64,000 nucleotides of DNA from an uncultured Acidobacteriota bacterium (GCA_963839295.1 CAWIUK010000010.1:160101-224100); one strand, 5' to 3'; shown: positions 32,584 to 62,254, numbered from the stretch's first letter. Made by a program: numbers and translations. Notes: generated from the sequence alone by a model not told the origin.

Positions 32584-33351
32584 TTGAAGAACAAGATCTT
32601 CCTGCTCTCCGAGCTGCTCCGCCGGGACCTCGCGGCCCGGTACGCCGGGAGCTTCGCGGGCCCCTTCTGGGCGGTCCTGAATCCGGCCATCATCTGCGCC
32701 CTCAACGCCTTCGTTTTCGCCTACGTCCTGAAGATCCCCACCCCGAGGGGATTCGGAGGGACGTACGTCGAATTCCTCCTCGCGGGGATGCTCCCCTGGC
32801 TGGGAGTGCAGGAGGCTATCGTCCGGGGCACGACCTCGATCACCGACCAGGCGCACCTCGTCAAGAAGCTGAGGTTCCCGGTCGCGCTCCTGACGCTCTC
32901 CTCGGTCGGCGCGGCCCTCGTCATCCAGACGATCGGCATCGCGCTCCTGTCGGCGTTCCTCGTCGTCTCGGGCCGGGGGCACGTCCAGCCCCTCCTCCTC
33001 CTCGTCGCGTTCGCGTTCGAGCTCCTCGTCCTCGCGGGCCCCGCGCTCATCCTCGCCTCGCTCAACCCGTTCTTCCGCGACCTCGCGCAGATCCTCCCGC
33101 CCGTCCTCATGATCGCGTTCTACGTGACGCCGATCCTCTACGCCGAGGAGCTCGTCCCGGCGTTCGCGGCCCCCGTCCTCGCGGTGAATCCCCTGCGCGA
33201 CGTCGTCGCGCTCTTCCGCGCGGCGCTCTTCGGCATGGCGCCGCCTCCGGTGCGCCGTCTCGGCGTCGAAACCGCGGCATTCATCGTGCTAGGCTTTGCG
33301 GGACGTCAGCTGTATCGCCGGCTCCGGCCGGCATTCGCCGACCTTCTCTAG
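32584..33351 (+). CDS. wzm: ABC-2 type polysaccharide/O-antigen export permease
   Basis: 255 aa, TTG start. LLRRDLAARYAGSFAGPFWAVLNP is the typical Wzm/TagG N-terminal motif. 6 TM. Confidence 0.85.
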   Translation: MKNKIFLLSELLRRDLAARYAGSFAGPFWAVLNPAIICALNAFVFAYVLKIPTPRGFGGTYVEFLLAGMLPWLGVQEAIVRGTTSITDQAHLVKKLRFPVALLTLSSVGAALVIQTIGIALLSAFLVVSGRGHVQPLLLLVAFAFELLVLAGPALILASLNPFFRDLAQILPPVLMIAFYVTPILYAEELVPAFAAPVLAVNPLRDVVALFRAALFGMAPPPVRRLGVETAAFIVLGFAGRQLYRRLRPAFADLL

Positions 33352-33415
33352 GCCCGAATTTGCGCTCGCCCGCCGGCCGAAGGCCGCCGGGTTCCGTGCG
33401 TCGACAGGAGATCTC

Positions 33416-35131
33416 GTGAAATCGTCCGTGTCCGTCCTCCTCGTGGCTGCGGTGCTCGGCGTCGCCGGCTGTTCCACCTCGCCCAAAGCGGCGTCCCCGT
33501 CACCCACCCCGTCGCCGTCGCCCGCTTCGAAAGAAGCGCAGGCGAAGACGAACCAGCGGGCCGAGTCGCTCCTCGGAGTGAGACCCCCCGTGGAGAACGC
33601 AGGGGAGGAAGACGGCCAGGTCGCGGCCCCGGTTCCGTACGTCGACCCCGAGACCGGAAGGCGCGTCCTCAGCATCCCGAAGGGCGGCGTCGGCACGCAG
33701 TACTACGAGAAGAACGGCCGCCTGTTCCTGGCGATGGTCTCGAGCGGAGGCGTCCCGATCCTCCGGCAGGACGACAAGGCGTGGATCGTCGAGGCGCCGG
33801 CCGAGCCGAAGAAGCGCGACCCGAATGCCGCGCCCGCGGTCGAGGACCAGGAGCCGATTTACGAGGTGCCGAAGATCGAGGCCGAGGTCGTCGCGCCGAA
33901 GACGTCGAAAGACCCCTTCCGGTTCGAGGAGATCTCGGCGGGCCTGCCCCGGACCGGCATGTGGCGCGAGAACTTCGACCTCGGCGACGTGCTCGGGGAC
34001 GGGCGTCCGCAGATCGTCGCGCCGCCCGCCCGGATGACGGGCCAGTCGCTCATGGTGTTCAAGCTCGGCAAGGACGACAAGGGCGCGCCGCGCTGGAGCC
34101 AGGCCCGGATCGAGCTCGAGAACCCCGACCAGCTCGACGCCGAATACGGCTTCGCGGCCGTCGCCGACGTCGACGGCGACGGGAAGCCGGACATCGTCTA
34201 CGGCGGACACGGCGCCGGTCCGGCCGTCGCCTTCAACAAGGGGGGCGGCAAGTTCGTCGCCGAGGCGCGGGGGCTCCCGCGGCCGATGTCCACGCGGGCG
34301 GTCGCCATCGGCGATCTCGACGGGGACGGACACAAGGACCTCGTCGTCATCTCCGACACGGGGGAGTGGGGGATTTCGGGCGGCAGGCCCGCCCTCGACA
34401 AGGACTCCACGTACGTGCGCGGGTACGACGTCCGCGCGTTCCTGAACGACGGGACGACCTTTCGCGAGGTCCACAAGGGCCTCGAGGGCGCGTGCTTCGG
34501 GTACGCGATCGCCCTGGCCGTCCCGAAGGACGCGAGCGGCGGCCTGCCCTTCTACAACTCCGCGTGCCGGTACTTCGGCGGGGCGCCGAACCTCTTCGAG
34601 TTCGACGCGAAGGCGGGAGAATTCCGCTACGCCGGCGGCGCCGCCGTCGAGGGCTTCGGCCAGCAGGTCGGCGCGGCGGCCGGCACCTACCGGGGCCGGC
34701 CCGCGATCTACGCGTCGTATTTCAAGCGCACGCCCGGCAACGGCGTGCCGAAGATCGACGGCCAGGGCGTGACGGTCTACTTCCGCGGCGCGGACGGGAA
34801 GATGGAAGCCAGGCGCGTCGTCAAGACGCTCCGGTTCGACACGGGCTCGCCGGCCATCGCGGCCGGCGACCTCAACGGCGACGGCCTCGACGACGTGGCC
34901 TGGGCCGACGAGTCCACGCACCGCATCCGCGTCTTCTTCCAGACCGCGGCGGGCGACTTCGAGGAGCTGGCCGAGGAGCGCGAGCCCACGTTCGTGAACC
35001 ATCCCACCTGCATGAGGATCGGCGACGTGGACGGGGACGGGCGCCCGGACCTCGTCCTCATGTACCAGTACCTGACGGGGGACGAGACGCGGTCGGGCGG
35101 TTTCCGGGTGTTCCGCGGCCTCGCGAAGTGA
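33416..35131 (+). CDS. FG-GAP/VCBS-repeat lipoprotein (integrin-alpha-like beta-propeller)
   Basis: Trimmed from ORF 33296 to GTG 33416, with SD AGGAG at 33406-33410. VKSSVSVLLVAAVLGVAGCS (lipobox), a PS-rich linker, and repeated DVDGDGKPDIV, GDLDGDGHKDLVV, GDLNGDGLDDVAW and GDVDGDGRPDLVL motifs. Confidence 0.8.
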   Translation: MKSSVSVLLVAAVLGVAGCSTSPKAASPSPTPSPSPASKEAQAKTNQRAESLLGVRPPVENAGEEDGQVAAPVPYVDPETGRRVLSIPKGGVGTQYYEKNGRLFLAMVSSGGVPILRQDDKAWIVEAPAEPKKRDPNAAPAVEDQEPIYEVPKIEAEVVAPKTSKDPFRFEEISAGLPRTGMWRENFDLGDVLGDGRPQIVAPPARMTGQSLMVFKLGKDDKGAPRWSQARIELENPDQLDAEYGFAAVADVDGDGKPDIVYGGHGAGPAVAFNKGGGKFVAEARGLPRPMSTRAVAIGDLDGDGHKDLVVISDTGEWGISGGRPALDKDSTYVRGYDVRAFLNDGTTFREVHKGLEGACFGYAIALAVPKDASGGLPFYNSACRYFGGAPNLFEFDAKAGEFRYAGGAAVEGFGQQVGAAAGTYRGRPAIYASYFKRTPGNGVPKIDGQGVTVYFRGADGKMEARRVVKTLRFDTGSPAIAAGDLNGDGLDDVAWADESTHRIRVFFQTAAGDFEELAEEREPTFVNHPTCMRIGDVDGDGRPDLVLMYQYLTGDETRSGGFRVFRGLAK

Positions 35132-35196
35132 GGTTCGGGGGCGTCCCGACACTCAATGGGTGATATGCGGCCCCAACATAATTTTTCGAAATGGCC

Positions 35197-35225
35197 TTGA
35201 CACCTTGGAATTTCGCCCCTATCGT
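35197..35225 (+). promoter_or_regulatory. Candidate sigma-70 promoter of the 35409 gene
   Basis: TTGACA (35197-35202), a 17-nt spacer, then TATCGT (35220-35225), in a low-GC gap. It implies a leader of about 175 nt before ATG 35409, which has SD TAGGAGA. Confidence 0.5.
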
Positions 35226-35408
35226 TCCGGCAGTGTTCGGGATATCTCTATCCGATTCGGTGCTCCCTTTGCCCCAGGGCGATGGGGGCGTTGCCTCTAA
35301 AAAAATTGCGGGAGGTGATTCGATATCGCAGGCGGCGAGCGCCCACGTTCCTCTAGTCATGATCGACGTAATCACACGTTTCAATCGAAATCACCGGTAG
35401 GAGAAAAA

Positions 35409-37058
35409 ATGAAGAAGTTTTCCGTTCTGATCGTGCTCGCGCTGCTCGCGGTTGCGGGTACGGGCTACGCGGTCACCTGCGCGTACGACAACGTGCCCGC
35501 GGCGACCCTCCTCGTCCCGTACTGGAAGGTGACGCTCAACGGCGCCACCGACTACCCGATTCCGACCGGCGGCACGGACACGCTCGTCTCCGTCGTCAAC
35601 GTCTCCACCCCCGGCGTGATCGCTCACGTCACGGTGTGGAACAAGTACTCCAAGGCCGTCGTCGACTTCAACATCCCGCTCACGGGCAAGGACGTCGTGT
35701 CCTTCTCCATGCGCGACGTCATGAACGGCAAGCTCAGCCCGAACCTTCCCCAGTACAACACGACGCTGTTCCCCGATGATCCGTGCGGCCTCATCAACCC
35801 GGGCGCCACGAACGCGATCTACCAGCCCTCCATCGGCTGGGCGGCGAACCAGTTCATCCGCTTCTCGAACCCTGACGCCGTCGCGGGCCCGTCCATCACG
35901 TCCGACACGTACCGCTCGATCTCGCAGTACAACCTGACGAACCCCGACGCCATCGGGCCGCTCTTCCGCCCGACCGTGTGGCACTCCCTCGACCAGTCCG
36001 GCGACATCACGACGTTCACGTCGTCCGGCGGCGCCAACATCCTCGACACGGACAACCCGGCGTGCAGCTCCAGCTGGAGCGGGGACTCGGTCTACAAGGA
36101 CGCCCTCTCGGGCTACCTGACGATCGACGTCGTCAACTACTGCACGAACTTCTTCCCCGACCAGCCCGACTTCTACGACAAGGACGCCATCGCGACGATG
36201 GGCTGGGGCCCGGCCAACGGCCTGACCTACACGCCGAACGTCCTGATCGGCGACATCTTCTACGTCGACTCGGCTGCCAACGGCGGCAACATCTCGGGCG
36301 ACCCGGCCGTCGCGGTCGAGTTCGACATGCGCCTGCCCTTCACGCCGACCACGAAGACCTTCTTCGGCAAGTTCGTCGCCTCGACGACGCCCACGCAGTG
36401 CGTCGCTGAGACGACCGGCGGCGTCACCGGCTGCACGAGCTACATCAGCGGCTACGCCCCGACGTTCCAGTTCGCCGGCGACGGCCGCGAGCCCCTCGGC
36501 GACCGCTACGGCTTCCGCTACCTCGCCGACTCGGCCAACGGCCTCCAGTCCTGGATCCAGGTCTGGCGCTCCGACTACTACAACGGCGCGGCGATCAACC
36601 TCTGCAACTGGGCGAACCCGGGCTCCGGCTTCGGCAAGGGCGCGGCGAGCACGACCGGTGCGAACTCCGGCATGTACGACGCCCTCCACCAGGTGCAGAT
36701 CTTCACGTACGACAACGACGAGAACGTCTACCAGGGCCAGGGCATCCCGCCCGGACCGTCCGGCCCCGGCCTGACGCCGCCCTCGAACACGTACATCTTC
36801 CTCGAGTCGCAGCGCATCAACCTGCTCACCGCCACCGGCTGGAACCCGTCGAACTTCGTCGGCGGCTGGGTCGACCTGACCCTCCGCGGCGCGACGATGA
36901 CGGGCGTCGATGCGGCGAACGGCCTCTACAACATGGGTTGGGTCGGTGTCATGCACACCGCGCCCGGCGCGTTCATCAGCGTCGGCCACGCGACGGCGAA
37001 CCTCAACAACCAGATGCAGTGCGCGCCGAACTTCACTGCACCAGGTACCCTCAACTAA
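35409..37058 (+). CDS. Orphan secreted Cys-containing surface protein (S-layer-like / major coat protein candidate), unknown family
   Basis: 549 aa. Signal peptide MKKFSVLIVLALLAVAGTGYA. Composition is rich in T/N/G/S/Y/W and poor in R/K/E, unlike its neighbours. 8 Cys. Own promoter, strong SD and a textbook terminator, so it is monocistronic. I recognise no motif. Confidence 0.8.
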   Translation: MKKFSVLIVLALLAVAGTGYAVTCAYDNVPAATLLVPYWKVTLNGATDYPIPTGGTDTLVSVVNVSTPGVIAHVTVWNKYSKAVVDFNIPLTGKDVVSFSMRDVMNGKLSPNLPQYNTTLFPDDPCGLINPGATNAIYQPSIGWAANQFIRFSNPDAVAGPSITSDTYRSISQYNLTNPDAIGPLFRPTVWHSLDQSGDITTFTSSGGANILDTDNPACSSSWSGDSVYKDALSGYLTIDVVNYCTNFFPDQPDFYDKDAIATMGWGPANGLTYTPNVLIGDIFYVDSAANGGNISGDPAVAVEFDMRLPFTPTTKTFFGKFVASTTPTQCVAETTGGVTGCTSYISGYAPTFQFAGDGREPLGDRYGFRYLADSANGLQSWIQVWRSDYYNGAAINLCNWANPGSGFGKGAASTTGANSGMYDALHQVQIFTYDNDENVYQGQGIPPGPSGPGLTPPSNTYIFLESQRINLLTATGWNPSNFVGGWVDLTLRGATMTGVDAANGLYNMGWVGVMHTAPGAFISVGHATANLNNQMQCAPNFTAPGTLN

Positions 37059-37080
37059 ATCTTCCCTGCATTCAGGGCGA

Positions 37081-37113
37081 GCGGGCGGCTTCGGCCGCCC
37101 GCTTTTTTTCTTT
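37081..37113 (+). terminator. Rho-independent terminator
   Basis: GCGGGCGGC-TTCG-GCCGCCCGC followed by TTTTTTTCTTTT, 23 nt after the stop of the 35409 gene. Confidence 0.85.
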
Positions 37114-37300: not shown

Positions 37301-40300
37301 ATGAATGCGTCCTCGATGACCAAACCCCGCTCCGCACGAGTCCTCGGCGCGGCCGCAGCGCTGATTCTCGGCTCGCTCGCCTTTGCACCGGGCCGGGCCG
37401 ACGGCCAGTCGCAGTCGGCGTGCACGCTCACGGCGTCGCCGACGAAGTTCGAGGCGTATCCGCCCGGCGCGGCGCGCCCCGGCACGCTGGCGGCCACCTT
37501 CAGCTCGGCGCTCGTCCTCTTCCAGAACGCCGCCGGCGCGAACCGGATGATGATGAACGAGACGTTCGGGTACTCGATCCTCGACCTGACGAACCCGGCG
37601 AGCCCGTACGCGCTCAAGTACGACGACTTCCGCTTCGACCCCGCGAGCTCGACGACGAACCCCCTCACGCAGTCCGGCGACGGCCAGAGCGCGATCCAGA
37701 CGTTCGGCGTCTCGCCCGACGGCCAGCGCGCGGCGATCGCCGTCAACGGGCCCTTCGGCGCGTGGAACACGCTCGCGGCCCGGTCGGACGGGGGCGACGG
37801 GTTCGGCCTCTGGGGCGACTTTCCGCCGAGCCGGCCCTACGGCACGGTGGTCCAGCACGTCAACGGGCGGTACATCGCGTACGCGGTCCACCAGTCGAAC
37901 GGCATGACGGCGGCGGACATCACCACGCTCCCGACGTCCGTTCCCCAGCCGCTCCCGAGTCTGAACATCCCGTACGACCAGACGGCCCTGCCGCCGGCCT
38001 ACGCGCCGCCTCTCCTCCTCAAGGGGAACTACCTCGTCTACCGGACGGGAACGTACCCCAACGCGGCCGTCACGGTCATCGACGCCTCGAACCCGGGGAA
38101 CCCGGGCGCGATCGCGTCGGCGTTCAAGACGGTCTCGATCCCGTACCTGACGAGCGACCCGAACCACCGCGCGCCGGCCAACTTCACGGCGGCGCTCGAC
38201 CCCGGGGACGCGACGAAGCTCTGGATCCTCATCGAGGTGAGCGCCGCGAGCGGCGAGAAGGCTCCGAGCTACGGCCTCGTCGCGGTCACGAAGGACGGGA
38301 CGGGCAACCTCACGGCGGCGGCCGCCCCTGGCCTCTTCGGGGTCCCGTGGCAGCCCGCCGAGACCTGGGGGAACGCCGGTTACGCTTCGGCGCTCGTCGC
38401 GCAGAACGGGAATCTCTTCGTCGTCATGTGGGCGCAGCGCTCCCTGCCGAGCCAGCAGTTCGGGTTCTACGCGACCACGGCCTCCGCCTGGACACAGACC
38501 CCACCGGCAGGCCTTCCGTTCCAGCAGGTGGCCGCGCCCGGCTTCAACCTCCCCGCGACCAACGCGTCGGCGCTCGGGGGCGGCGGCGTCGCTCCCGCGG
38601 CGAACGTCTTCCAGTACTTCCCGACGGGCCTCGCCGCCTACGCCGATCCCGCTCGCGTGCGCGCCCGTCAACCCGAAGGCGACGAGCACGCTCACGGCGC
38701 ACGTCCGTACGGCGTCGCGGTCCCGAACAACGGCACGGTGTTCATCGGCGACGAGGTGGACATCACCGCCGGCCGTCGTCCCGCCGCCGATCGCAGACCC
38801 CGCTGGTTGGCGGCGGCGGGTGGTCAACTGCGGCTGGAACTTCGACTTCGACTTCCACTCGGGCGCCGCGCTCGAGGACGCCGGCGCGACGCCGCGAATC
38901 AAGCTCCCGACAACGCCGCGTTCGGCAGTCCGGGTCCGACCCCGTCCTCGCCATCTTCCTCGTCGGACCGTGCGACCCGGCATACACGGACTTCCGGCTT
39001 CCCCGTCGACCGGGACCGGTGCTGGACAGTCGGTCCTGAGCAACGCCTCCACCGGCGGCTCCGGACTTCACAGGGGCCGAAGCAGCCGGGACGTCGAAGC
39101 CCACGACGCATCGCGATGGAGGCGCAACAACCAGTACGGGACGAGCGGCACGGCGACGTTCACGATCAACTGGAAGGTCCCGGCCGCGAAGGTCGCGTCC
39201 ACGCAGATCCTCGTCGGCGCGCCTCGCTCGTCGAGCGCGTCGGACGGCCACCCGACGCGAACGGGTACAAGTGGTATTTCGGCGACACGCCGACGAACTC
39301 TCACGGTCTGCTCACCGGCGAGCTGCGACGGACTGCTTCGTGCGTCCCGTCGCGAACCAGCCGTCGGGACGCACTACTACTGGCTGACGGCGACATACGC
39401 CAACGGCTTCTCGACGCCGGACTACGACGGGCACGACGACGTCGGCCTGCCGTTCACGATCGCGAACTTCGTCGCCGGCGTTCACGGTCAACGGCTCCGC
39501 GTGCGGCCCCATCACCGCGCTCGATCAACAACCCCGTCAACGTCGTCAACAACTCGCAGCGCGGCAGCGGGATCACGCGCGACGTACCAGTACAGCCTCT
39601 GCCGCCGGCGGGTCCGTGCGCGGACAACTACCTCCCGTTCACGATCAACGACTCCTCCGGGGCGACGGGCACGATCCCGATCCCGGCAACGACCGGCGAC
39701 ATACGCCCTCAAGATCAAGGCGACGTACACGGGTGGGACGGGCGGAACGGTGTCCTGGCCTGACCCGGCCGGCGCCGCGTACTTCACGGTCAACGCCGTG
39801 AACATCCCCGCGACCACGGTTTCCTCGATCATCCCGAACCCCGTTCCCGCCGGCAGCAACGTCACGCTGACGTGCTCGGCGGTCGGCGGGTCCGGGTCTT
39901 ACACGGGATGGGCGTGGTACAGCAACGGAAACCAGGTCAGCACGCAGAATCCGTACACGTTCACGGCGACGAACGGCGGGACCGACGCGACGTCACGTAT
40001 CCGGTGACGTGCACCGCGACCGACAGCAACGGGCAGACGAGCCAGCAGAGCCCCGTCGCGAACGCTGACGATCCTCCACTCCGTCAAGCCCGTGGTCTCG
40101 GCATCCGTCAACCCGTCCAACATCGTGGGCGGCCAGTCCGCCACGTTCACGTGCAGCGCGACCGGCGGGACGGGGAGTTACACGCTCTACCAGTGGGCCA
40201 CGGGCCTTCGGAGTGGTCTCGGGCCAGAACCAGAGCACGTACGCGGTCACGATCAACGAATACGACGGGCTCGACGATGACCCAGCAGCTCTCCTGCAGC

Positions 40301-54850: not shown

Positions 54851-55588
54851 ATGAGAACGTCCATGTGGAGTTTCCTGCGAGTCGCGAAGGCGGAGCGGAG
54901 CCGGAATGTCGATGAGCATTTCGTGCCCGGCAGCGGGCTGACCCTCGCTGAAGCGATTCGAGCGGGCGAGAGGGACGCCGTCCACCACCTCATTCGCTAC
55001 GAATGGGCTGCGCGCTGCCTCGCGGACGTTCCCGCCGGGAGCCTGCTGGATCTCGCGACGGGTTCCGGGTATGGGGCCTACGAGCTTGCGACCCGCCTTC
55101 CGTCGGCGCGAGTGGTCGGTGTGGATTACGACACCGCCGCGGTCGAGCAGGCGAGGAGCCGATATGCGCGCCGGAACCTGGAGTTCCGCACCGGAGACGC
55201 GACGCGGTGGGGCGAAACGATCGGCTCCGAGGCGTTCGACGTGATCGTCAGCTTCGACATGGTCGAGCACGTCGTCCACCGCGAGATCATGATGGAGAGC
55301 CTCGTCCGTCACCTCGCGCCCGGAGGCGCTCTCCTGATGTCCACGCCGTGCGGACAGCTCGAGAACGACTTGAAGCCCCTGTGGAGCCATCATCGGATCG
55401 AGTACTCGTCCGCGAGCCTCTACGACTTCCTTCGGCGGTATTTCGGGGTCATCGTCAGGCCCGACGGCCCGGGCTTTCCGCACCGCGACGTTTTCGATCT
55501 GCTCGCGGAGGGGCCGGTCGACTATTTCCTGAAGATGAATCCGGTCATCTGCCGCGAGCCGATCCTCGTCGAGAACCCGTATCGGTGA
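54851..55588 (+). CDS. Class I SAM-dependent methyltransferase
   Basis: 245 aa. Motif I LLDLATGSGYGAYELA, with post-I VVGVDYD and FDVIVSFDMVEHV. Confidence 0.85.
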   Translation: MRTSMWSFLRVAKAERSRNVDEHFVPGSGLTLAEAIRAGERDAVHHLIRYEWAARCLADVPAGSLLDLATGSGYGAYELATRLPSARVVGVDYDTAAVEQARSRYARRNLEFRTGDATRWGETIGSEAFDVIVSFDMVEHVVHREIMMESLVRHLAPGGALLMSTPCGQLENDLKPLWSHHRIEYSSASLYDFLRRYFGVIVRPDGPGFPHRDVFDLLAEGPVDYFLKMNPVICREPILVENPYR

Positions 55589-55625: not shown

Positions 55626-57645
55626 TTGAGCGATCATTCCGACGACCTTCGCGAGGAGCTGGAGCAGACGCGCGCGGAGCTCGCCGCGGCGCGGGCGCGC
55701 ATCACGGCGATGGAGATGAGCTTCTTCTGGAAGCTCCGCAACGCGTGGTGGAGGCTGAAGGACGTCCTCGCGGGCCGCGCGTCCGCCGCGTCGCCGACGC
55801 CGCCGCCCGTCGCGGACGCCGGCCTCGTGCGGCTTCCGGGCTTTTCGCCCGTGCGCTTCCGCGGGCCCGGGCTCGATCGCTCGACGGAGTCCGTGGACGT
55901 CGTCGTTCTCGCGCAAGGCGATCTGCCGGTTCTCGAAACCTGTCTCGACGCGCTGATCCGGCACGCTCGTCCGCCGTACGCGCTCGTCCTCGCCGACCCC
56001 GGCGTTCCGTCCGCCGCGCGCGAGTGGCTGGAAGGCTTCGCGCGCGACCAGGGCGCGCGTCTCGAATCCGGCGCGGACGCCTTCGCGCGGGCTCTCGCCG
56101 CCGGCTCGTCGCGCCACGTCCTTCTCCTCGACGGGCGCGCGCGCGTCGCCGAGAACGTGCTGGACCGGCTGCTCGCGTGTCTCACATCGGACGAAAATGC
56201 CGCGGGGGCCGTCCCGCTCGCGGCCGACGTTCCGGGCGCGGGAGCGGCCTTCGAGCGCGCGGCGCGCGAGATGGCGCTCGCGGACGCCGAGGCCGCGACG
56301 CTCCTCGCCGCCGAGTCGGCGCGCCTCTTCCCGAAGTCCACCGACGGCGGCGGATGCGCGCATCCTCGTCAGGCGCGGCGCGCTGCCCGCGGGCGCCGAG
56401 CGCTCGCCGCGGCAGGTGCTCGAGGTGCTCCGGGCCGGCGGCAGGCTCGTGCTCCTCGCGGACGACACGTGGGTCGAGGGTGCCGCGCGGGCGGAAGGCG
56501 GGCCGCCGGACCGCGTCGTGGCCGGCGTCGCCGCCCGCTTCGCCGTCCTGCCGGAGCGCCTCGCCCTCCGCGAACGCGCGCAGCGCCTCTGGGAGGGCAA
56601 GCGCGTCCTCTACGTGCTGCCCGTCCTCGAGCGCGGCGGCGGGTCGAACGTCGTCCTCTCCGAGGCGCGCGCGATGACGCGGATGGGCGTCGAGACACGC
56701 GTCTTCAACCTCGCGGCCCACCGCGCCGTCTTCGAGAAGAGCTACCCGGCGCCGGGGGTCCCGGTCGTTTACGGGCGCGAGGGCGACCTCGCCGAGGCGG
56801 CCCGCGGCTTCGACGCGGTGATCGGGACGGCGCACTACTCGGTGCCATGGATGGCGCCGCTCGCGCGGCTCCCGAAGCCTCCCGCGCTCGGCTACTGCAT
56901 CCAGGACTACGAGCCGCTCTTCTACGCCGAGGGCACCGCGGACTGGACCCGCGCGTTCGCCTCGTACGGGCTCGTGCCCGGGATGAAGCGATTCTCGAAG
57001 TCGAAGTGGAACGCGGACGAGGTGACCGCGAAGACGGGCCTCGACTGCGCGCTCGTCTCCGCGAGCTTCGACGCGGAGGTCTTCCGCCCGCGCCTGCCGG
57101 CGCCCGCGGAGAGCCCCGTGAGGATCGCCGCGATGGTGCGCCCCTCCACGCCGCGGCGGCAGCCGGGCCTCACGGTGGACGTGATGCGCTCCCTCGCGCG
57201 GAAGCTCGGCGGCAGGGTCGAGATCGTCCTCTTCGGCTCGGAGCCGTCGGACCCCGCCCTCGAGGCGTTCCGCCTCGACTTCCCGCACGTGTTCGCGGGC
57301 GTCCTCGACGACCGGCAGCTCTCGGCGCTCCTGTCGCAGGTGCATGTCTTCGCGGACCTCTCGACGTACCAGGCGCTCGGCGTCGCCTCTCTCGAGGCGA
57401 TGGCGTCGGGTGCCGCCGTCGTCGTCCCCCTCGCGGGCGGCGCGGGCACGTTCGCGGCGCACGAGGGGAACGCGCTCGCCGTCGACACGTCGTCGCCCGG
57501 CGCGTGCGTCGCGTGCCTCGAACGCCTCGCGACGGACCCGGCGCTCCTCGCTTGCCTCTCCGCGCAGGCGATCGCCGATGCCGGCCTCCACACGCCCGAC
57601 CGCGCGGCGGCGGGCATCCTGGAGGTCCTTTTTGGCGAAGCGTAG
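55626..57645 (+). pseudogene. Coiled-coil + GT2 + GT4 fusion glycosyltransferase, interrupted by a +1 frameshift
   Basis: TTG 55626. MSDHSDDLREELEQTRAELAAARARITAMEMSFFWKLRNAWWRLKDVL, then a GT2-like region (VDVVVLAQGDLPVLETCLDAL...) in frame 0 up to ...ARLFPKSTDGG (~56350). The sequence continues in frame +1 (ADARILVRRGAL...GKRVLYVLPVLERGGGSNVV...GVASLEAMASGAAVV, GT4) to the stop at 57645. Confidence 0.75.
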
Positions 57646-58705
57646 GGTCCACGTCCTCCACGGCTTCTACGGCGCGGAGATCCCGTACAGCTGCACGTAC
57701 ATCCGGCTCCTCTGCCCGCTGACCCACCCGGCTCTCGCGGGGGAGGTCGAGCTGACGCACGGGACGGCGGAGGCGATCCCCGACTGCGACCTCCTCGTCG
57801 TCGAGCGCCACACGCTGTGGCCGTACGAGAGGCAGCTCGACGGCTTCCAACGGCTGCTCTCGCGGTGCCGGCAGCGGGGCGTCCCGGTCGTTTACGAGCT
57901 CGACGACAACCTGCTCGACCTGCACCGGGGCGAGCCGTGGGAGGTTTACCCCGGCCCGTTCCTCCGCGGGGTCGTCTCGTTCCTGACGCGTGAGGCCGAC
58001 GGCGTGATCGTCTCGACGCCGGCGCTCGCCGAGCGCCTCCAACGCCTCAGGCCCGGCGTCCTCGTCGTGCCGAACGCCCTCGACGAGTGGCTCTTCGGGT
58101 CCGGGCCGGTGCCGGCGTCCCCGCGCGGCCCGGCGGTGACGATCGGCTACATGGGGACGCTGACGCACGAGGCCGACCTCCGCATGGTGCTCGCGCCGCT
58201 GCGCGCGCTCCTCCGGCGCCACGCCGGCCGCGCGCGGTTCGAGCTCGTGGGCGGGGCAGAGGGGGACCGGGTCGCGTCGCTCTTCGCGGGCCTGCCGTTC
58301 CGGTCGCTGCACCCGCGGCACGAGGATTCGTACCCGAGCTTCGTCCCATGGATGCGGCGGCACCTCGGGTGGGACGTCGCGATCGCGCCGCTCGAGGACG
58401 ACGCGTTCACGCGGTGCAAGTCGGACCTGAAATACCTCGACTACGCGGCGCTCGGGATCCCGGGCGTCTTCAGCGACGTGCGCCCCTACCGCGACACCGT
58501 GCGCCACCGCGAGAACGGCCTCCTCGCCGCGAACGAGCCGAAGGCGTGGGCGGACGCGCTCGAGGAGATCGTGGGCGACGCCGCGCTGCGCGCGCGGCTC
58601 GCGGAGGCCGCGAAAGCCGAGGTGCTCGGCGGCCGGATGCTGAGGACGAACGCCATGCGCTGGCGCGAGGCGATCGAGGCGATCGTGCCCGGGCTCTTCG
58701 GCTAG
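57632..58705 (+). CDS. Glycosyltransferase (GT-B-like, family unassigned)
   Basis: Real part of ORF 57344..58705, from TTG 57632: LAKRRVHVLHGFYGAEIPYSCTYIRLLCPLTHP...VVYELDDNLLDL...KSDLKYLDYAALGIPGVFSD. 357 aa. Overlaps the upstream stop by 14 nt. Confidence 0.72.
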   Translation: MAKRRVHVLHGFYGAEIPYSCTYIRLLCPLTHPALAGEVELTHGTAEAIPDCDLLVVERHTLWPYERQLDGFQRLLSRCRQRGVPVVYELDDNLLDLHRGEPWEVYPGPFLRGVVSFLTREADGVIVSTPALAERLQRLRPGVLVVPNALDEWLFGSGPVPASPRGPAVTIGYMGTLTHEADLRMVLAPLRALLRRHAGRARFELVGGAEGDRVASLFAGLPFRSLHPRHEDSYPSFVPWMRRHLGWDVAIAPLEDDAFTRCKSDLKYLDYAALGIPGVFSDVRPYRDTVRHRENGLLAANEPKAWADALEEIVGDAALRARLAEAAKAEVLGGRMLRTNAMRWREAIEAIVPGLFG

Positions 58706-58709: not shown

Positions 58710-60500
58710 TCAGCGCACGAGTCGTAATTCGATCCTCGGGGCCTCGAGGACGAGCGGCTTTCCGCCCTCGGCCTCCTCGGCGGTCAGCTTCAGCGTCACG
58801 GTCTTTCCGGCGAACGCCTCGAGGTCCAGAGAGAGCGATTCTCTTCCGCCGGCCGGGACGAGGGCCCGCGCGTCGACGGGCTCGCCGGCGCCGTTCACGA
58901 CCTCGACGCGCGCGCCGCGCGCGAGCATCGGGTCGTCCCTGGATGCGGAAACGCGCGTCTCGAACCGCGCGGACTTCAGGTGCGGCGGCAGGTCCACGCG
59001 CCACGTGACGGCGGCGTCCGGCCCGAGCACGAGGTCGAGGCGGTGGAAGTCGTCCGGGTCGCCGGGCGTCCTACCGTCGCGCGAGAGAAATGCCGCCGCC
59101 TTCGATGGGTCGGTCCCGACGCGCCCGACGGCGACGTCGCCCTGGAGGAGGTACGTGCGGCGAGGACCGAAGACGGACAGCCCGTGCCGCTCCAGGAGTT
59201 CTCCGAGTAATGCCAGCTCGTCCTTCCGGTAGCCGTTCTCCCCCCACTGAAAGACGCGGGCATGACATCCCGGCGGCGCCGTCCGCCATTCCCGCAGACA
59301 CGCGGCCGAGGCCGGTGCGCGCGACGGGAGGTAGAAGGACTTGTCCTCCCAGGTGCGATTCGAATAGACGAGGCCGGAAACGATCGTCGCGAAGCCCGCG
59401 ACCGCGATCGGACGGGGCGCAGCGGCGAGAAGAACGGCGAGGGCAAGCCAGAACACGGTCATCGGTGCGATGTACCAGGGTGTGATGCCCTCGCGGAAGA
59501 AGCCGATTTGAAATGCGAGAAGGAGACCCCACGCGAGGAACGCAAGGGCCGCAATCCTCTGCCTCATCGCGTGTCGTGCGCTCCACACGGAGGCGGCCGC
59601 GAGAACGAGGCCGGCGGCCCCGAAGACGATTGCAGATCGGCGGGGGCCGAAGTCAAGACCGGTCCCGTTCGCGAACGGGCGTCCCAGGAGACCAAGAACG
59701 CCCAGAAGGCCGCGCAGCCCCGGACTCTTCACGACGCTTGGATTCGGGGCGACGAGAAGGAACCACACGTACTGCGAAAGGGCGAGCGCGGCAACGGCGG
59801 GCAGGACGGCCCAGCGTCGAACGCTCCGTTCGCCGGCCGCGAACAGGGCGACGGCGAAGACGGGCCATGCCAGCACGCCGCCCCCCCAGGACCACGACGC
59901 GAGCAGGCCACAGCCCGCGAGGAGCGTCACGCGCAGGCCGGGCCGGTCCGCGAGGCGCGTCGCGGCGAGCGCTCCGGCCGCGAGAGCGACCTGTGCGAGC
60001 TGCATCTGCAGGACGGACTCTCCGAACGTGAACGACGTGACATTCGATGCGGAGAAGGCGAGCGTCGTGAGAACGGGAAGGATCGCCCATCGTGCCGCGC
60101 TCGTCGTGAAGGCGGACGCCATGCACCACACGAGCGCGACCTTGAGCGCCGTCAGGCACAGGCCGAGGCCGAGCTCGACGCGCAGATCCCACGCGAACCA
60201 CCGCGCCTCGGTCCAGTAGATCGGCAGGAGACCCAGCCACGAGTGTCCACCCCAGATCCAGGTGTCGGAGAAAAGGCTCGCGAGCGGGTAGTGCCCCTCG
60301 AGGAGGGCGACGACGATCGGGGCCCTGCCGACATAATCGTTCGACAGGTTGTTCTCGCCGACCGTGAAGACGATCCACGCCATCCTCAGCGGCGAAACGA
60401 GGGCCAGCACCAGCGAGACCGCCTTGCCCGTGCGGCTGACGGGCGGTCCGTCCGGCGTTCCGGCCCCGGCGATCGTGTCCTCGCGGCGGTGGCTCGACAT
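58710..60500 (-). CDS. Polytopic (~13 TM) membrane protein with ~190-aa C-terminal soluble domain; GT-C-like / oligosaccharyltransferase-like candidate (paralog 1)
   Basis: Trimmed from ORF 58710..62360 to ATG 60500 (MSSHRREDTIAGAG...). Has a first-loop motif GENNLSNDY and a C-terminal domain with a Cys pair (ASAACLREWRTAPPGCHARVF). 596 aa. Colinear with the next gene. Confidence 0.75.
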   Translation of the reverse strand: MSSHRREDTIAGAGTPDGPPVSRTGKAVSLVLALVSPLRMAWIVFTVGENNLSNDYVGRAPIVVALLEGHYPLASLFSDTWIWGGHSWLGLLPIYWTEARWFAWDLRVELGLGLCLTALKVALVWCMASAFTTSAARWAILPVLTTLAFSASNVTSFTFGESVLQMQLAQVALAAGALAATRLADRPGLRVTLLAGCGLLASWSWGGGVLAWPVFAVALFAAGERSVRRWAVLPAVAALALSQYVWFLLVAPNPSVVKSPGLRGLLGVLGLLGRPFANGTGLDFGPRRSAIVFGAAGLVLAAASVWSARHAMRQRIAALAFLAWGLLLAFQIGFFREGITPWYIAPMTVFWLALAVLLAAAPRPIAVAGFATIVSGLVYSNRTWEDKSFYLPSRAPASAACLREWRTAPPGCHARVFQWGENGYRKDELALLGELLERHGLSVFGPRRTYLLQGDVAVGRVGTDPSKAAAFLSRDGRTPGDPDDFHRLDLVLGPDAAVTWRVDLPPHLKSARFETRVSASRDDPMLARGARVEVVNGAGEPVDARALVPAGGRESLSLDLEAFAGKTVTLKLTAEEAEGGKPLVLEAPRIELRLVR

Positions 60501-60511
60501 TCGTCCTCGAA

Positions 60512-62254
60512 TCAGTGTACGAGGTGCAGCTCGATCTTCGGCGCCTCGAAGACGAGCGGCGCGCCGGCGGCGGCTTCCCCGGTGCTCAGCCTCAGCGTCA
60601 CGGTCCGTCCGGCGAATGCCCCGAGGTCCAGCGAAAGCGGCGCCCGGCCGCCGGCCGGCACGAGCGCCCGCGCCTCGGCGGTCTCGCCCGCAACCGTCAC
60701 ACGCGCGCCGCGCGCGGGCGGCGCGCCGTCTCCCGAGGCCCGCACGCGCGTGGCGAACCGCGCCGACTCGAGGTCCGGCGGCAGGTCGACGCGCCACGTG
60801 ACCGCGGCGCCGCAAGGGAGGACGAGGTCGAGGCGGCGGAAGTCGTCGGGGTCGCCGCGCGTCCCGCCGTCGCGCGAGAGGAACGCCGTCGCCCCCGGGT
60901 TTTCGTTCGTGACGCGCCCGACGGCGAGGTCGCCCTGGAGGAGGTACGTGCGACGTGGACCGAAGACGGACAGCCGGTGTCGCTCCAGCGGCTCTCCGAG
61001 CATCGCGAGCTCGTTCCGCCTGTACTCTTCCTCGCCCCACAGGAAGACGCGGGCGTGACACCCGGTCGGCGCGGTCCGCCACTCGCGCAGGCACGCGGCC
61101 GACGCGGGCGAGCGCGACGGGAGGAAGAAGGACTTGTCCTCCCAGGTCCGGTTCGAGGTGAGGAATCCGGCCGCGACCACCGCGAAGCCCGCCGCCGCGA
61201 GCGGGCGCGGCGCGGCGGCGAGGAGGCCCGCGAGACCGAGCCAGAAGACGGTCATCGGCACGGTGTACCAGGGCGTGACGTCCGAACGGAACATGGAGAT
61301 CTGGCCCGCGAGGAGAAGGCTCCACGCGAGGAAGGCCAGCGCCGGGAGCCTCTCGCGCAGGGCGCGGCGCGACGCCCAGAGCGCGGCCCCGGCGAGCACG
61401 AGGCCGGCGGTCCCGAAGAGGAACGCCGCCGGGAGGGGGCCGAAGGCGGTGCCCGTGCCGTTTGCGAACGGCCGCCCGAGGAGGTCGGGGACGTGGAGGA
61501 GCCCGCGCGGCCCCGGTGGGCCCACGACGCGCGGAAGCGGCCGCACCGCGAGATACCAGACGTACTGGGAAAGGCCAAGGGCCGCCGCGGCCGGCAGGAG
61601 GGCCCATCGCCGGACGCTCCTCTCGCCCGCCGCGAAGAGCGCGGCCGCAAAGACCGGCCACGCCATCGCGCCTCCGCCCCACGACCACGAGGCGAGAACG
61701 CCGCAGGCCGAGAGGCTGGCGGCCCGCAGGGCGGGCCGGTCCGCGAGGCGCTCGAGGGCGCAGGCCCCCGCCGCGACGGCGACCACCGCGAGCTGCAGCT
61801 CGAGGGTCGACTCGCCGAACGTGAAGGAGGCGGTCTGCGCCACCGAGAACGCGAGCGCCGAGAGCACCGGCAGGAGAAGCCAGCGCCGGCGCGCGGAGAG
61901 CGCCGGGGTCAGCGCGAGCCAGACGAGGAAGGTCCTGAGGGCCGCGAGCGCGAGGCCGATCCCGAGATCGACCCGGACGTCCCACGCGAAGAACCGCGCG
62001 TCGAACCAGTAGATCGGCAGGAGCGCGACCCACGAGTGGCCGGTCGCGACCCACGTGTGGCGGAAGAGAGGCCCGGGCGGGAAGCGTCCCTCGAGAAGCG
62101 CGGCGACGACGGGAACCCGCGCGAGATAGTCGTTCGACAGGTTGTTCTCGCCGTAGTGGAAGACGATCCACGCCATGCGCGCGGGCGCGAGAAGCGCAAG
62201 ACCGATCGACAGGGTCTTCGCGGCCCGGGAAACGGGCCGGTCGTCCGTGCTCAA
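60512..62254 (-). CDS. Polytopic (~13 TM) membrane protein, GT-C-like candidate (paralog 2)
   Basis: Trimmed from ORF 60512..62539 to TTG 62254 (TTGA overlap with the holB stop). LSTDDRPVSRAAKTLSIGLALLAPARMAWIVFHYGENNLSNDYLARVP... shows the same architecture and motifs as 58710..60500. 580 aa. Confidence 0.75.
   Translation of the reverse strand: MSTDDRPVSRAAKTLSIGLALLAPARMAWIVFHYGENNLSNDYLARVPVVAALLEGRFPPGPLFRHTWVATGHSWVALLPIYWFDARFFAWDVRVDLGIGLALAALRTFLVWLALTPALSARRRWLLLPVLSALAFSVAQTASFTFGESTLELQLAVVAVAAGACALERLADRPALRAASLSACGVLASWSWGGGAMAWPVFAAALFAAGERSVRRWALLPAAAALGLSQYVWYLAVRPLPRVVGPPGPRGLLHVPDLLGRPFANGTGTAFGPLPAAFLFGTAGLVLAGAALWASRRALRERLPALAFLAWSLLLAGQISMFRSDVTPWYTVPMTVFWLGLAGLLAAAPRPLAAAGFAVVAAGFLTSNRTWEDKSFFLPSRSPASAACLREWRTAPTGCHARVFLWGEEEYRRNELAMLGEPLERHRLSVFGPRRTYLLQGDLAVGRVTNENPGATAFLSRDGGTRGDPDDFRRLDLVLPCGAAVTWRVDLPPDLESARFATRVRASGDGAPPARGARVTVAGETAEARALVPAGGRAPLSLDLGAFAGRTVTLRLSTGEAAAGAPLVFEAPKIELHLVH

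What the first reader, a model, noticed from the sequence alone, without database searches (positions are those of the whole stretch)
32584..62254. 30-kb cell-surface island: wzm and wzt split by three secreted-protein genes, then a dense glycosylation toolkit ending in two GT-C-like membrane proteins
Seen in sequence:
- wzm (32584) and wzt (42866) normally sit next to each other. Here they are 9.5 kb apart, and the gap holds an FG-GAP lipoprotein, an orphan monocistronic secreted protein and a ~1820-aa Ig/PKD surface protein.
- Downstream lie GT4, GNAT, GT2, a 9-heme cytochrome with a Pro/Thr tail, two GT2-GT4 fusions, and a coiled-coil GT2.
- These are followed by a PIG-L deacetylase, a Gly/His/Tyr/Trp PEGA protein, a SAM methyltransferase, another GT, and two tandem ~13-TM proteins with periplasmic-type C-terminal domains.

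Established knowledge: ABC-transporter-dependent glycan clusters next to the structural S-layer gene, which include an O-oligosaccharyltransferase, are known from Gram-positive S-layer glycosylation (slg) loci such as Geobacillus stearothermophilus wsa genes.

Inference: this island could be a comparable surface-protein O-glycosylation/coat system in a high-GC diderm, with the tandem membrane proteins as the transferase step. I do not recognise any described system with this composition.
Basis: partly seen in the sequence, partly recalled or inferred. Interest (0 to 1): 0.75.

Follow-up and report, generated by a model that had tools for sequence, protein, structure and literature searches.

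The report
Conserved acidobacterial surface glycan locus
Uncultured soil Acidobacteria of the class Thermoanaerobaculia keep this 30-kb block of genes in the same order: it builds and exports a sugar polymer, sits among genes for three secreted envelope proteins, and includes an undescribed family of membrane glycosyltransferases, but nothing yet shows that the sugars are attached to those proteins.

Summary
Three genes are not open as read. The ~1820-aa surface protein has at least 9 frame changes within 38.8-40.26 kb, and wzt and one GT2-GT4 fusion each carry a 1-nt insertion.

The block is not a mobile island. Its GC content matches its flanks, it lies between housekeeping genes, and its order recurs across Thermoanaerobaculia MAGs. 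wzm and the FG-GAP gene precede the "orphan" (OrfX) in 37 of 39 loci. wzt follows the giant protein in 17 of 19 closer relatives. OrfX has more than 310 homologues, so it is not an orphan.

The tandem membrane proteins model confidently (pLDDT 88.6) as 13-TM GT-C-fold enzymes with a CBM-like C-terminal β-sandwich. The best structural matches are EmbC, EmbA/B, AftD, Stt3 and PglB. They match no Pfam, NCBIfam or PDB sequence. Their family has 811 representatives, often beside Wzm/Wzt or other polysaccharide genes.

My best reading is an ABC-transporter-dependent, class-conserved envelope glycan with a periplasmic GT-C step, co-inherited with coat proteins. Protein glycosylation remains possible but has no direct support. 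This is a new variant of a known kind, of moderate interest.

The parts
30062..32105 (-). Two conserved upstream genes. u2 (30062-31180) is a putative lipoprotein with no Pfam match. u1 (31182-32105) has a weak TPR match.
   Evidence: Syntenic with the locus in most related loci. Pfam; N-terminus.
32098..32544 (-). XRE-type HTH regulator, transcribed divergently from wzm.
   Evidence: NCBIfam HTH matches. Present next to wzm in 36 of 38 loci.
32584..33351 (+). wzm, an ABC-2 glycan-exporter permease.
   Evidence: PF01061, E 7e-12. Best NCBIfam match is galactan-export Wzm/RfbD, below cutoff.
33416..35131 (+). FG-GAP repeat lipoprotein with a Pro/Ser/Thr linker after the lipobox.
   Evidence: FG-GAP_3, E 3e-30. 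Lipobox LGVAGC.
35197..35225 (+). Sigma-70-like promoter site upstream of OrfX (TTGACA-17-TATCGT).
   Evidence: 10 of 12 positions match; 3 sites found against 0.4 expected in the region.
35409..37058 (+). OrfX: a secreted, acidic, Cys-containing, beta-rich protein of an unnamed family. It is conserved across the class.
   Evidence: No Pfam, NCBIfam or PDB match. 310 homologues. Signal peptide. AF2 model poor, pLDDT 46.
37079..37104 (+). Intrinsic terminator after OrfX.
   Evidence: 11-bp stem with 9 GC pairs, followed by a T-rich tail.
37301..42763 (+). Giant secreted surface-protein gene. Domains in order: unassigned N-terminal domain, three Ig-like repeats, PKD repeats, unassigned C-terminal domains. 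It is disrupted in this sequence.
   Evidence: Ig_3 and two PKD domains. Orthologues are single ORFs of 1700-1900 aa. Repeats.
38800..40260 (+). Segment of the giant gene with at least 9 frame changes and the stop at 39761-39763.
   Evidence: The same profile interval is broken in L004, while short-read orthologues read in one frame.
42866..44078 (+). wzt, the ABC ATPase with a C-terminal Wzt_C carbohydrate-binding domain. It carries a 1-nt insertion at about 43005.
   Evidence: ABC_tran E 3e-19 and Wzt_C E 2e-9. Frameshift.
44075..45076 (+). GT4 glycosyltransferase.
45073..46038 (-). GNAT acyltransferase (Acetyltransf_9).
   Evidence: Same position and strand in related loci.
46074..47141 (+). 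GT2 glycosyltransferase.
47273..49237 (+). Secreted cytochrome with nine CxxCH motifs and a Pro/Thr repeat tail. It is a lineage-specific insertion, not a core part of the locus.
   Evidence: Pfam; haem motifs; repeats. Absent between GT2 and GT2-GT4 in L010, L011, L015, L029 and L037.
49268..51283 (-). GT2-GT4 fusion (671 aa).
51280..52422 (-). GT2 with a C-terminal coiled coil. Its stop codon overlaps the start of the downstream GT2-GT4 fusion.
52444..53268 (+). PIG-L/LmbE-type de-N-acetylase.
   Evidence: PF02585, E 5e-26.
53403..54755 (+). Secreted protein with a Gly/His/Tyr/Trp-rich low-complexity region and two PEGA domains.
54851..55588 (+). SAM-dependent methyltransferase, a candidate chain-capping enzyme.
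   Evidence: 98% identical in L001.
55626..57645 (+). Second GT2-GT4 fusion, with an N-terminal coiled coil. It carries a 1-nt insertion at about 56360.
   Evidence: The orthologue in L001 is intact at 672 aa.
57647..58705 (+). GT4 glycosyltransferase.
58710..60500 (-). TMB, a GT-C-fold membrane protein and paralogue of TMA.
   Evidence: 68% identical to TMA. No Pfam or NCBIfam match.
60512..62254 (-). TMA, a GT-C-fold membrane protein. It has 13 TM helices, a conserved GENNLSNDY loop after TM1 and a C-terminal CBM-like beta-sandwich.
   Evidence: AF2 model, Foldseek, invariant residues. The TTG start overlaps the holB stop.
62251..63908 (-). holB (DNA polymerase III delta prime) and tmk, upstream in the same operon as TMA.
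   Evidence: DNA_pol3_delta2 and Thymidylate_kin in the syntenic loci, with the same 4-nt overlap.

Best explanation
This is a vertically inherited, class-wide envelope locus of Thermoanaerobaculia (Acidobacteriota). It makes a conserved surface glycan by the ABC-transporter-dependent route.

Proposed steps:
1. Soluble GT2, GT4 and GT2-GT4 enzymes build the polymer on a polyprenol carrier at the cytoplasmic face. This is inferred from the families present.
2. PIG-L, the GNAT and the SAM methyltransferase modify or cap it (inferred).
3. Wzm/Wzt exports it. The Wzt C-terminal carbohydrate-binding domain presumably recognises the capped end, as in E. coli O8/O9a (established knowledge for that family).
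4. At the periplasmic face, one or two members of a previously undescribed GT-C family act on the exported glycan. Their own CBM-like domain would hold the glycan while they branch, extend or transfer it. The fold is shown here; the acceptor is inferred.

The FG-GAP lipoprotein, OrfX, the giant Ig/PKD protein and the PEGA protein are the protein components of the same coat. They are co-inherited with the glycan genes and most likely associate with the glycan non-covalently, rather than being its covalent acceptors (inferred).

The frame disruptions in this copy are most likely consensus errors of a long-read metagenome assembly.
For: Gene families. wzm and wzt match glycan-exporter models, and Wzt_C scores above its Pfam cutoff.

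GT-C fold:
- AF2 model with pLDDT 88.6 and 13 TM helices.
- Foldseek matches EmbC at E 1.3e-5, plus EmbA/B, AftD, Stt3 (TM-score 0.41-0.44 on the query) and PglB. The C-terminal domain matches CBM11, 22, 35, 61 and 6.
- Invariant E36 and D42 lie just after TM1.
- The most conserved segments are TM1 plus the first periplasmic loop and the periplasmic stretch after TM13.

Precedent: a GT-C enzyme with a C-terminal CBM acts on an exported O-polysaccharide (PMC11127046).

The wider family (811 representatives) lies in polysaccharide loci in other phyla:
- beside Wzm/Wzt in L054 and L056;
- beside rmlABCD in L053;
- beside MBOAT and DUF1574 genes in L058.

Conserved synteny. The full locus is contiguous in four genomes.

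The GT set is the same across the class at 50-98% identity. This fits a conserved structural glycan rather than a strain-variable O-antigen.

The surface proteins diverge faster than the enzymes. Against L004, the enzymes are 92-94% identical, OrfX 83%, FG-GAP 73% and the giant protein 59-61%.

Frame breaks:
- None were detected in the other ~32 kb of the window.
- Those in the giant gene are clustered in about 1.45 kb of a 5.46-kb gene.
- The same profile interval is broken in an independent long-read relative, while short-read orthologues are intact.
Against: - No initiating phosphoglycosyltransferase, polyprenyl-phosphate-sugar synthase with TM helices, flippase, WaaL or outer-membrane export protein was found in the window. 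The start and end of the pathway are therefore undefined.
- The CBM assignment rests on a predicted structure.
- Stt3 and PglB give TM-scores as good as or better than Emb, so the fold does not settle the acceptor.
- In the most distant clade, wzt and the GTs are not next to wzm and the protein genes. Nothing explains why wzm stays with the proteins.
- OrfX has no assignable fold or function.
- If the frameshifts are real, Wzt and one polymerase-type GT are inactive in this genome.
Confidence: 0.45

Rival explanations
1. Surface-protein glycosylation. The exported polyprenol-linked glycan is transferred en bloc, or sugar by sugar, onto OrfX, the giant protein or the FG-GAP lipoprotein. The GT-C proteins act as oligosaccharyl- or protein-glycosyltransferases, giving a glycoprotein coat.
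For: - The three secreted-protein genes sit inside the glycan cluster and stay there across the class.
- Stt3 and PglB are among the structural matches, with the highest query-normalised TM-scores.
- The GT-C protein diverges at a rate like the secreted proteins, not like the cytoplasmic GTs: 76% against 86-98% in L001, and 50% against 77-81% in L002.
- Pro/Ser/Thr-rich linkers occur in the FG-GAP lipoprotein and the cytochrome tail.
- OrfX has its own promoter-like site, a long leader and a strong terminator, as abundant coat-protein genes often do (the comparison rests on general knowledge).
Against: - No WWDxG motif in 33 of 33 members.
- No Wzy_C, PMT or PglB Pfam match.
- The C-terminal domain is CBM-like and the best E-values are to Emb and AftD.
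- No sequon enrichment in the secreted proteins.
- Relatives of the GT-C family in Chloroflexota sit in polysaccharide loci without OrfX-like genes.
- The distant clade keeps the proteins without adjacent wzt and GT genes.
Confidence: 0.25
2. No functional coupling. This is an ordinary lipid-linked O-antigen or exopolysaccharide cluster in which an ancestral insertion of surface-protein genes separated wzm from wzt. The order persists only because the clade is young or rearranges little.
For: - All glycan genes belong to standard families.
- The cytochrome shows that unrelated genes can be inserted into the block.
- The flanking housekeeping genes are also syntenic.
- wzt and the GTs are elsewhere in the distant clade.
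Against: - The order holds down to 47-50% OrfX identity, in 37 of 39 and 17 of 19 loci. Over the same span other neighbours change: u1 and u2 are absent in L005, and the cytochrome is present or absent.
- wzm stays with the protein genes even when wzt does not, which a neutral insertion does not predict.
- The GT repertoire is conserved, unlike typical O-antigen loci.
Confidence: 0.2
3. The locus is decaying in this genome. On this reading the frameshifts in wzt, the GT2-GT4 fusion and the giant surface gene are real, and the system is inactive or phase-switched off. This concerns the state of this copy and is compatible with any of the functional models.
For: - Three genes of the block are disrupted, while none of about 30 genes in the other 32 kb show a break by the GC3 frame model.
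- The wzt insertion lies in a G/C run and separates the first 48 codons from Walker A.
Against: - At least 9 breaks confined to 1.45 kb of a 5.46-kb gene, with both ends perfectly open, is not what neutral decay gives.
- The same interval is broken in an independently assembled relative.
- Related long-read MAGs show scattered breaks in many genes, whereas short-read MAGs have intact genes.
- Coding signal (GC3 0.93-0.99) is undiminished in the disrupted genes.
Confidence: 0.15

Closest known systems
ABC-transporter-dependent O-polysaccharide assembly with a Wzt carbohydrate-binding domain (E. coli O8/O9a, Klebsiella O-antigens; e.g. PMC9445017, PMC11231755)
   Same: Wzm permease; Wzt ATPase with a C-terminal Wzt_C domain; multi-domain GT fusions; a SAM methyltransferase as candidate chain terminator; coiled-coil segments on GTs.
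   Different: - wzm and wzt are 9.5 kb apart, with three secreted-protein genes between them.
- No WecA-type initiator or WaaL in the window.
- The GT set is conserved across a whole class rather than variable between strains.
- GT-C enzymes are part of the locus.
Three-component extracytoplasmic glycosylation with a GT-C plus CBM enzyme (GT136 ORF12 of Citrobacter youngae O1/O2; PMC11127046)
   Same: A GT-C-fold enzyme with a C-terminal beta-rich CBM, encoded in an O-polysaccharide locus and acting after export. A candidate catalytic acidic residue lies next to TM1.
   Different: - No polyprenyl-phosphate-sugar synthase or MATE/GtrA flippase was found in the window.
- 13 predicted TM helices here against 11 there.
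- The gene is translationally coupled to holB.
Mycobacterial arabinosyltransferases EmbA/B/C and AftD, acting on a Wzm/Wzt-exported galactan
   Same: These are the best structural matches. They are GT-C enzymes with periplasmic CBM-like domains that bind a polysaccharide acceptor, and the glycan is exported by an ABC-2 transporter. The window's wzm and wzt best match the NCBIfam galactan-export models, below cutoff.
   Different: No sequence similarity. The proteins here are much smaller (580 aa against more than 1000 aa) and have a single periplasmic domain. The host is a diderm acidobacterium.
S-layer glycosylation (slg) loci of Geobacillus stearothermophilus and Paenibacillus
   Same: ABC-transporter-type glycan genes with a methyltransferase and multi-domain GTs lie next to a surface-protein gene.
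   Different: - The transferase in slg loci is WsaB, of the Wzy_C/O-antigen-ligase type. No such domain is found here.
- No S-layer protein has been identified here.
- The host is a diderm.
- Protein glycosylation has not been shown.
Caulobacter crescentus S-layer locus, where O-antigen genes next to rsaA make the glycan that anchors the S-layer non-covalently (from general knowledge; not checked in papers here)
   Same: In a diderm, a surface-protein gene neighbours genes for a conserved O-polysaccharide. The glycan and the protein form one coat without covalent linkage.
   Different: No RsaA-like protein or type I secretion genes here. The anchoring role is an inference only.

Membership tests
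GT-C fold glycosyltransferase superfamily (TMA, TMB) | Polytopic membrane domain of about 8-15 TM helices with the GT-C architecture, similar to solved GT-C structures. | tested here: met
   AF2 pLDDT 88.6 and pTM 0.89, with 13 TM helices. The top Foldseek PDB matches are EmbC (E 1.3e-5), EmbA/B, AftD, Stt3 and PglB.
GT-C fold glycosyltransferase superfamily (TMA, TMB) | Conserved acidic residue(s) in the first extracytoplasmic loop after TM1. | tested here: met
   G35, E36, N38, S40 and D42 are invariant in 33 sequences, directly after helix 10-34. This loop is one of the two most conserved segments. Catalytic roles were not tested.
GT-C fold glycosyltransferase superfamily (TMA, TMB) | Use of a polyprenyl-phosphate-linked sugar donor at the extracytoplasmic face. 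| not testable with these tools
   Needs an enzyme assay.
Described GT-C sequence families (PMT/PMT_2/ArnT, STT3, Emb, YfhO and others in Pfam or NCBIfam) | Significant match to the family's profile. | tested here: not met
   - No Pfam or NCBIfam family at E<=0.01 for TMA, TMB or ten distant relatives.
- No PDB sequence match at E<=10, by single sequence or by profile.
- hhalign against a PMT_2-like and an ArnT-like neighbour gave probability 0.3%.
- CAZy models such as GT136 were not available.
N-oligosaccharyltransferases (Stt3/PglB/AglB) | WWDxG motif in the periplasmic domain after the last TM helix. | tested here: not met
   0 of 33 family members carry WWD or WW[DE]xG. The conserved stretch after TM13 reads TWEDKSF.
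O-antigen ligase / O-oligosaccharyltransferase family (WaaL, PglL, WsaB) | Wzy_C domain. | tested here: not met
   No such Pfam match in any protein of the block or in the upstream genes scanned.
ABC-transporter-dependent glycan export (Wzm/Wzt) | ABC-2 permease plus ABC ATPase of the TagH/Wzt/KpsT group. | tested here: met
   PF01061 and PF00005. The best NCBIfam matches are TagH and galactan-export Wzt and Wzm, all below the equivalog cutoffs.
ABC-transporter-dependent glycan export (Wzm/Wzt) | Wzt C-terminal carbohydrate-binding domain, coupling export to a capped chain end. | tested here: met
   PF14524 Wzt_C at 38.0 bits against a cutoff of 30.4. Binding specificity was not tested.
ABC-transporter-dependent glycan export (Wzm/Wzt) | Intact reading frames for both subunits. 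| tested here: inconclusive
   wzm is intact. wzt has a 1-nt insertion at about 43005 relative to L004. Whether this is an error or a mutation cannot be decided without reads.
Three-component periplasmic glycosylation system (Gtr / GT136 type) | A polyprenyl-phosphate-sugar synthase and a flippase encoded with the GT-C enzyme. | tested here: not met
   No GT of the block has TM helices, and no MATE, GtrA or other flippase-like gene was found in the window. The GT-C relatives in L054 and L056 do have small GT2 genes nearby, plus an LPG_synthase_TM gene in L054 and Arn-type genes (ArnT- and ArnA-like) in L056.
S-layer glycosylation (slg) locus | An identified S-layer structural protein that carries the glycan. 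| not testable with these tools
   OrfX has no recognisable S-layer domain and its model is poor. No sequon enrichment was found.
Genomic island (horizontally acquired) | Deviant composition, mobility genes, or patchy distribution among relatives. | tested here: not met
   GC content is like the flanks. No tRNA or other Rfam match in the window, and no integrase or transposase among the Pfam matches of the genes scanned. The block is present and syntenic across the class.

The most novel reading that the evidence does not exclude
The unnamed GT-C family is a new kind of oligosaccharyl- or polysaccharyl-transferase. It would take the long, capped glycan exported by Wzm/Wzt and attach it covalently to OrfX and/or the giant Ig/PKD protein. 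That would give a glycoprotein coat in a diderm, built by a route not described so far: ABC-transporter export followed by GT-C transfer to protein. The tandem paralogues would serve different acceptors.
Probability: 0.2. Interest if true: 0.8.

Novelty: new variant of a known kind. Interest (0 to 1): 0.5.

Why it matters
Thermoanaerobaculia are abundant soil and sediment Acidobacteria and are almost entirely uncultured. Nothing is known about their envelope. This locus is a class-wide marker that ties three things together:
- a conserved glycan pathway;
- a large unnamed GT-C family (811 representative clusters, also found in Chloroflexota polysaccharide loci);
- a set of fast-evolving secreted proteins.

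It gives glycobiologists a defined new GT-C family to characterise. It gives microbial ecologists candidate surface antigens and coat components. If the glycan proved to be protein-linked, it would add a new route of bacterial protein glycosylation.

Tried and rejected
- **OrfX structure.** The AF2 model built from 28 homologues was poor (pLDDT 46), so I did not run a fold search on it.
- **OrfX and TM-family profiles against PDB sequences.** No match at E<=10.
- **OrfX profile against the C-terminal domains of the giant protein.** hhalign found no relationship.
- **TM-family profile against neighbouring GT-C proteins.** No relationship to a PMT_2-like or an ArnT-like protein. Each template was a single sequence, so this is a weak test.
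- **Sequon counts.** N-x-S/T, D/E-x-N-x-S/T and D-S/T-hydrophobic motifs are not enriched in the secreted proteins against shuffles.
- **Codon usage as a proxy for expression of OrfX.** Only Gly GGC usage stands out; not decisive.
- **Rfam.** No match in the window.
- **DNA repeats as a cause of the frame breaks.** The Ig and PKD repeats are only 63-83% alike over 36-46 nt, so misassembly by repeats is unlikely.
- **tblastn with the intact but distant L005 orthologue.** At about 30% identity it was too divergent to map the breaks. A profile of closer orthologues worked.
- **Uninformative contexts.** L057, a GT-C relative among haem genes, told nothing. L058 gave only a loose link to polysaccharide acetylation.
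- **Literature.** A search for Thermoanaerobaculia plus S-layer found nothing relevant.
- **Rejected ideas.** I rejected a horizontally acquired island (see the membership test). I also rejected a diversity-generating retroelement as the cause of the variable middle of the giant gene: the changes are indels, and none of the gene products scanned in the window matched a reverse-transcriptase family.

Full report
**1. What is in the sequence**

The window is about 72% GC throughout, and the block does not differ in composition from its flanks. Spurious ORFs abound at this GC content. I therefore called genes with a codon-position GC model and checked them by translation.

- wzm, the FG-GAP lipoprotein, a secreted 549-aa protein with no family (OrfX), and a giant Ig/PKD protein;
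- wzt with a Wzt_C domain, then GT4, GNAT (minus strand) and GT2;
- a cytochrome with nine CxxCH motifs and a Pro/Thr tail;
- a GT2-GT4 fusion and a coiled-coil GT2 (both minus strand);
- PIG-L, a Gly/His/Tyr/Trp-rich PEGA protein and a SAM methyltransferase;
- a second GT2-GT4 fusion and a GT4;
- two tandem membrane proteins on the minus strand, 68% identical to each other.

OrfX has a promoter-like site, a leader of about 180 nt and a strong terminator of its own. The membrane proteins lie downstream of tmk and holB. The TTG start of the first one overlaps the holB stop codon, and three relatives show the same 4-nt overlap.

**2.

Three genes are not open as the sequence stands.
- **The giant gene.** It changes frame at least nine times between about 38.8 and 40.26 kb. 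The stop at 39761-39763 lies in this stretch.
- **wzt.** It has one extra base at about 43005, just before Walker A.
- **The second GT2-GT4 fusion.** It has one extra base at about 56360.

The two single insertions are judged against the intact genes of the closest relative. The frame model found no such break in the roughly 30 genes of the other half of the window.

I think these are mostly assembly errors, for four reasons.
- The breaks in the giant gene are confined to 1.45 kb of a 5.46-kb gene whose two ends are perfectly open.
- The same profile interval is broken in an independently assembled close relative, L004.
- Several related MAGs with long-read-style contig names show scattered breaks in many genes.
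- Orthologues on contigs with short-read-assembler names (L006, L009, L011, L019) and L032 are single ORFs of 1700-1900 aa.

The assembly technology is inferred from contig names only. DNA repeats are too weak to explain the breaks. The broken stretch is also the least conserved part of the protein, so strain mixture in the consensus is a plausible cause. Only the reads can settle this.

**3. Origin and distribution**

All homologues of the membrane proteins in the first search (126) and all listed homologues of OrfX come from metagenomes or MAGs. Where they are named, the names are Thermoanaerobaculia, Acidobacteriota or 'Holophagales'. A scan of species-representative genomes returned 47 loci, nearly all from such MAGs. 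None comes from a named isolate.

tblastn of the window's proteins against these loci gives the following:
- wzm and the FG-GAP gene lie upstream of OrfX in 37 of 39 loci with enough flank. The two exceptions are second copies of OrfX located elsewhere in the genome.
- The HTH regulator is present in 36 of 38 loci.
- The giant gene lies downstream in 30 of 34 loci.
- wzt follows the giant gene, with GT4, GNAT and GT2 after it in most of these loci, in 17 of 19 loci where OrfX is at least 47% identical.
- It does so in only 2 of 8 loci below that identity. In one member of that distant clade (L038), the giant gene is followed by unrelated genes.

The right half of the block is syntenic in three relatives, running tmk, holB, GT-C, then convergently GT4, GT2-GT4, methyltransferase, PEGA, PIG-L, GT2 and GT2-GT4. 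Contig coordinates show that the two halves are contiguous in those same genomes.

The cytochrome is missing from this position in several relatives, so it is a passenger. The block is therefore an ancestral chromosomal locus of the class, not an acquired island.

**4. The membrane proteins**

The AF2 model of TMA is confident (pLDDT 88.6, pTM 0.89). It shows 13 TM helices, short helices in the first periplasmic loop and a C-terminal beta-sandwich.

Foldseek against the PDB puts GT-C enzymes first: EmbC, EmbA/B, AftD, yeast Stt3 and PglB. It matches the C-terminal domain to many carbohydrate-binding modules.

Family-invariant residues G35, E36, N38, S40 and D42 sit directly after TM1, where GT-C enzymes carry their catalytic acidic residue. 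That loop and the stretch after TM13 are the most conserved parts of the protein.

At the sequence level the family is new:
- no Pfam, NCBIfam or PDB match for the window proteins or for ten distant relatives;
- no WWDxG motif;
- no detectable relation to PMT_2- or ArnT-like neighbours.

A profile search of 1.84 billion representative proteins found 811 members. Most are about 800 aa long, and several are named as Chloroflexota. Their contexts are again polysaccharide loci:
- Wzm-Wzt with GT4, a methyltransferase and GT2 genes (L054);
- Wzm, a Wzt_C-type Wzt and Arn-like genes (L056);
- rmlABCD with two tandem family members (L053);
- MBOAT and DUF1574 genes (L058).

In one Thermoanaerobaculia relative, a PMT_2-like GT-C occupies the place of the second paralogue. 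In another, such a module is fused to the GT2-GT4 protein.

**5. How it most likely works**

The cytoplasmic part reads as a standard ABC-transporter-dependent glycan pathway: soluble GTs including polymerase-like fusions, coiled-coil segments, a methyltransferase and a Wzt with a carbohydrate-binding domain. That a Wzt_C domain couples export to a capped chain end is established for the E. coli and Klebsiella systems. It is only inferred here.

The GT-C step would follow export. GT-C enzymes with a CBM that act on exported polysaccharide are known, namely Emb, AftD and GT136. That is why I favour a glycan acceptor.

The same GT set is kept across the class at 50-98% identity, while the secreted proteins and the GT-C protein diverge faster. 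This argues for a conserved structural glycan rather than a variable O-antigen.

The conserved interleaving with four secreted proteins suggests one coat made of glycan and protein. Whether the link between them is covalent is open. I give 0.45 to a glycan acceptor with non-covalent association, 0.25 to protein glycosylation and 0.2 to no functional coupling. Real inactivation of this copy, at 0.15, is a separate question about the state of this genome.

**6. What remains unexplained**

- Why wzm stays with the protein genes when wzt does not.
- What OrfX is. It is acidic, has eight conserved Cys residues and strongly conserved Asp/Asn/Gly motifs, but no usable model.
- Where initiation, ligation and outer-membrane export are encoded. 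No such gene was found in the window.

**7. Verdict**

The GT-C call is right. The protein-glycosylation reading is unproven and is currently the less likely option.

The locus is a new variant of a known kind. The pathway logic is known, while the conserved architecture and an unnamed GT-C family are unusual. Interest is moderate, at 0.5.

Noticed in passing
window 38800-40260: At least 9 frame changes are clustered in the least conserved third of the giant surface gene. The closest relative's independent assembly (L004) is broken in the same profile interval, while short-read orthologues are intact.
   Followed up: yes
window ~43005 and ~56360: There are single-base insertions in wzt (in a G/C run before Walker A) and in the second GT2-GT4 fusion (in a GCGCGC stretch), relative to L004 and L001.
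   Followed up: yes
window 47273-49237: The nine-haem cytochrome with a Pro/Thr tandem-repeat tail is a lineage-specific insertion between GT2 and GT2-GT4. It is absent at this position in L010, L011, L015, L029 and L037.
   Followed up: partly
L055 11740-13359; L002 12814-16383: In one relative a PMT_2-like GT-C occupies the slot of the second paralogue. In another, a PMT_2-like module is fused to the GT2-GT4 protein, giving 1189 aa. Different GT-C families are thus exchanged at this position.
   Followed up: partly
window 60512-63908; L001, L002, L055: The GT-C gene is translationally coupled to holB by a 4-nt overlap and lies downstream of tmk in all genomes checked. This is an odd operon partner for replication and nucleotide genes.
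   Followed up: partly
L036, L038, L039, L042, L043, L045: In the most distant clade (OrfX 41-46% identical), HTH, wzm, FG-GAP, OrfX and the giant gene are kept together, but wzt and the GTs are not downstream. In L038 the next genes are an unknown, a CorC/CBS gene and an Era-like GTPase gene.
   Followed up: partly
L021, L049: Second copies of OrfX (54-59% identical) lie outside the locus context in some genomes.
   Followed up: no
window 58710-62254 versus L001 and L002: The GT-C protein diverges faster than its neighbours. It is 76% identical in L001 where holB and tmk are 93% and the methyltransferase 98%. It is 50% identical in L002 where the GTs are 77-81%.
   Followed up: partly
L053 6408-11177: A Chloroflexota-type locus has two tandem members of the same GT-C family next to rmlABCD. 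Tandem duplication therefore recurs in this family.
   Followed up: partly
window 8682-9566 (-): In the UbiA/CtaB-like gene, the first ATG/GTG/TTG is at 9488 although the coding signal runs to about 9565. This could be an unusual start codon or another indel.
   Followed up: no
window 6508-10527 (-): A second ABC-2 permease/ATPase pair sits with DUF420, ctaB-like and ctaA-like haem A synthesis genes. It is unrelated to the glycan locus.
   Followed up: no
window 51280-52422, 55626-55760 and the C-terminus of 49268-51283: Three GTs carry a coiled-coil segment ending in a Trp/Arg/Lys-rich amphipathic stretch (e.g. RSRVWRLFTPWWKFKEF, MSFFWKLRNAWWRLKD). These could be membrane-association or ruler elements.
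   Followed up: no
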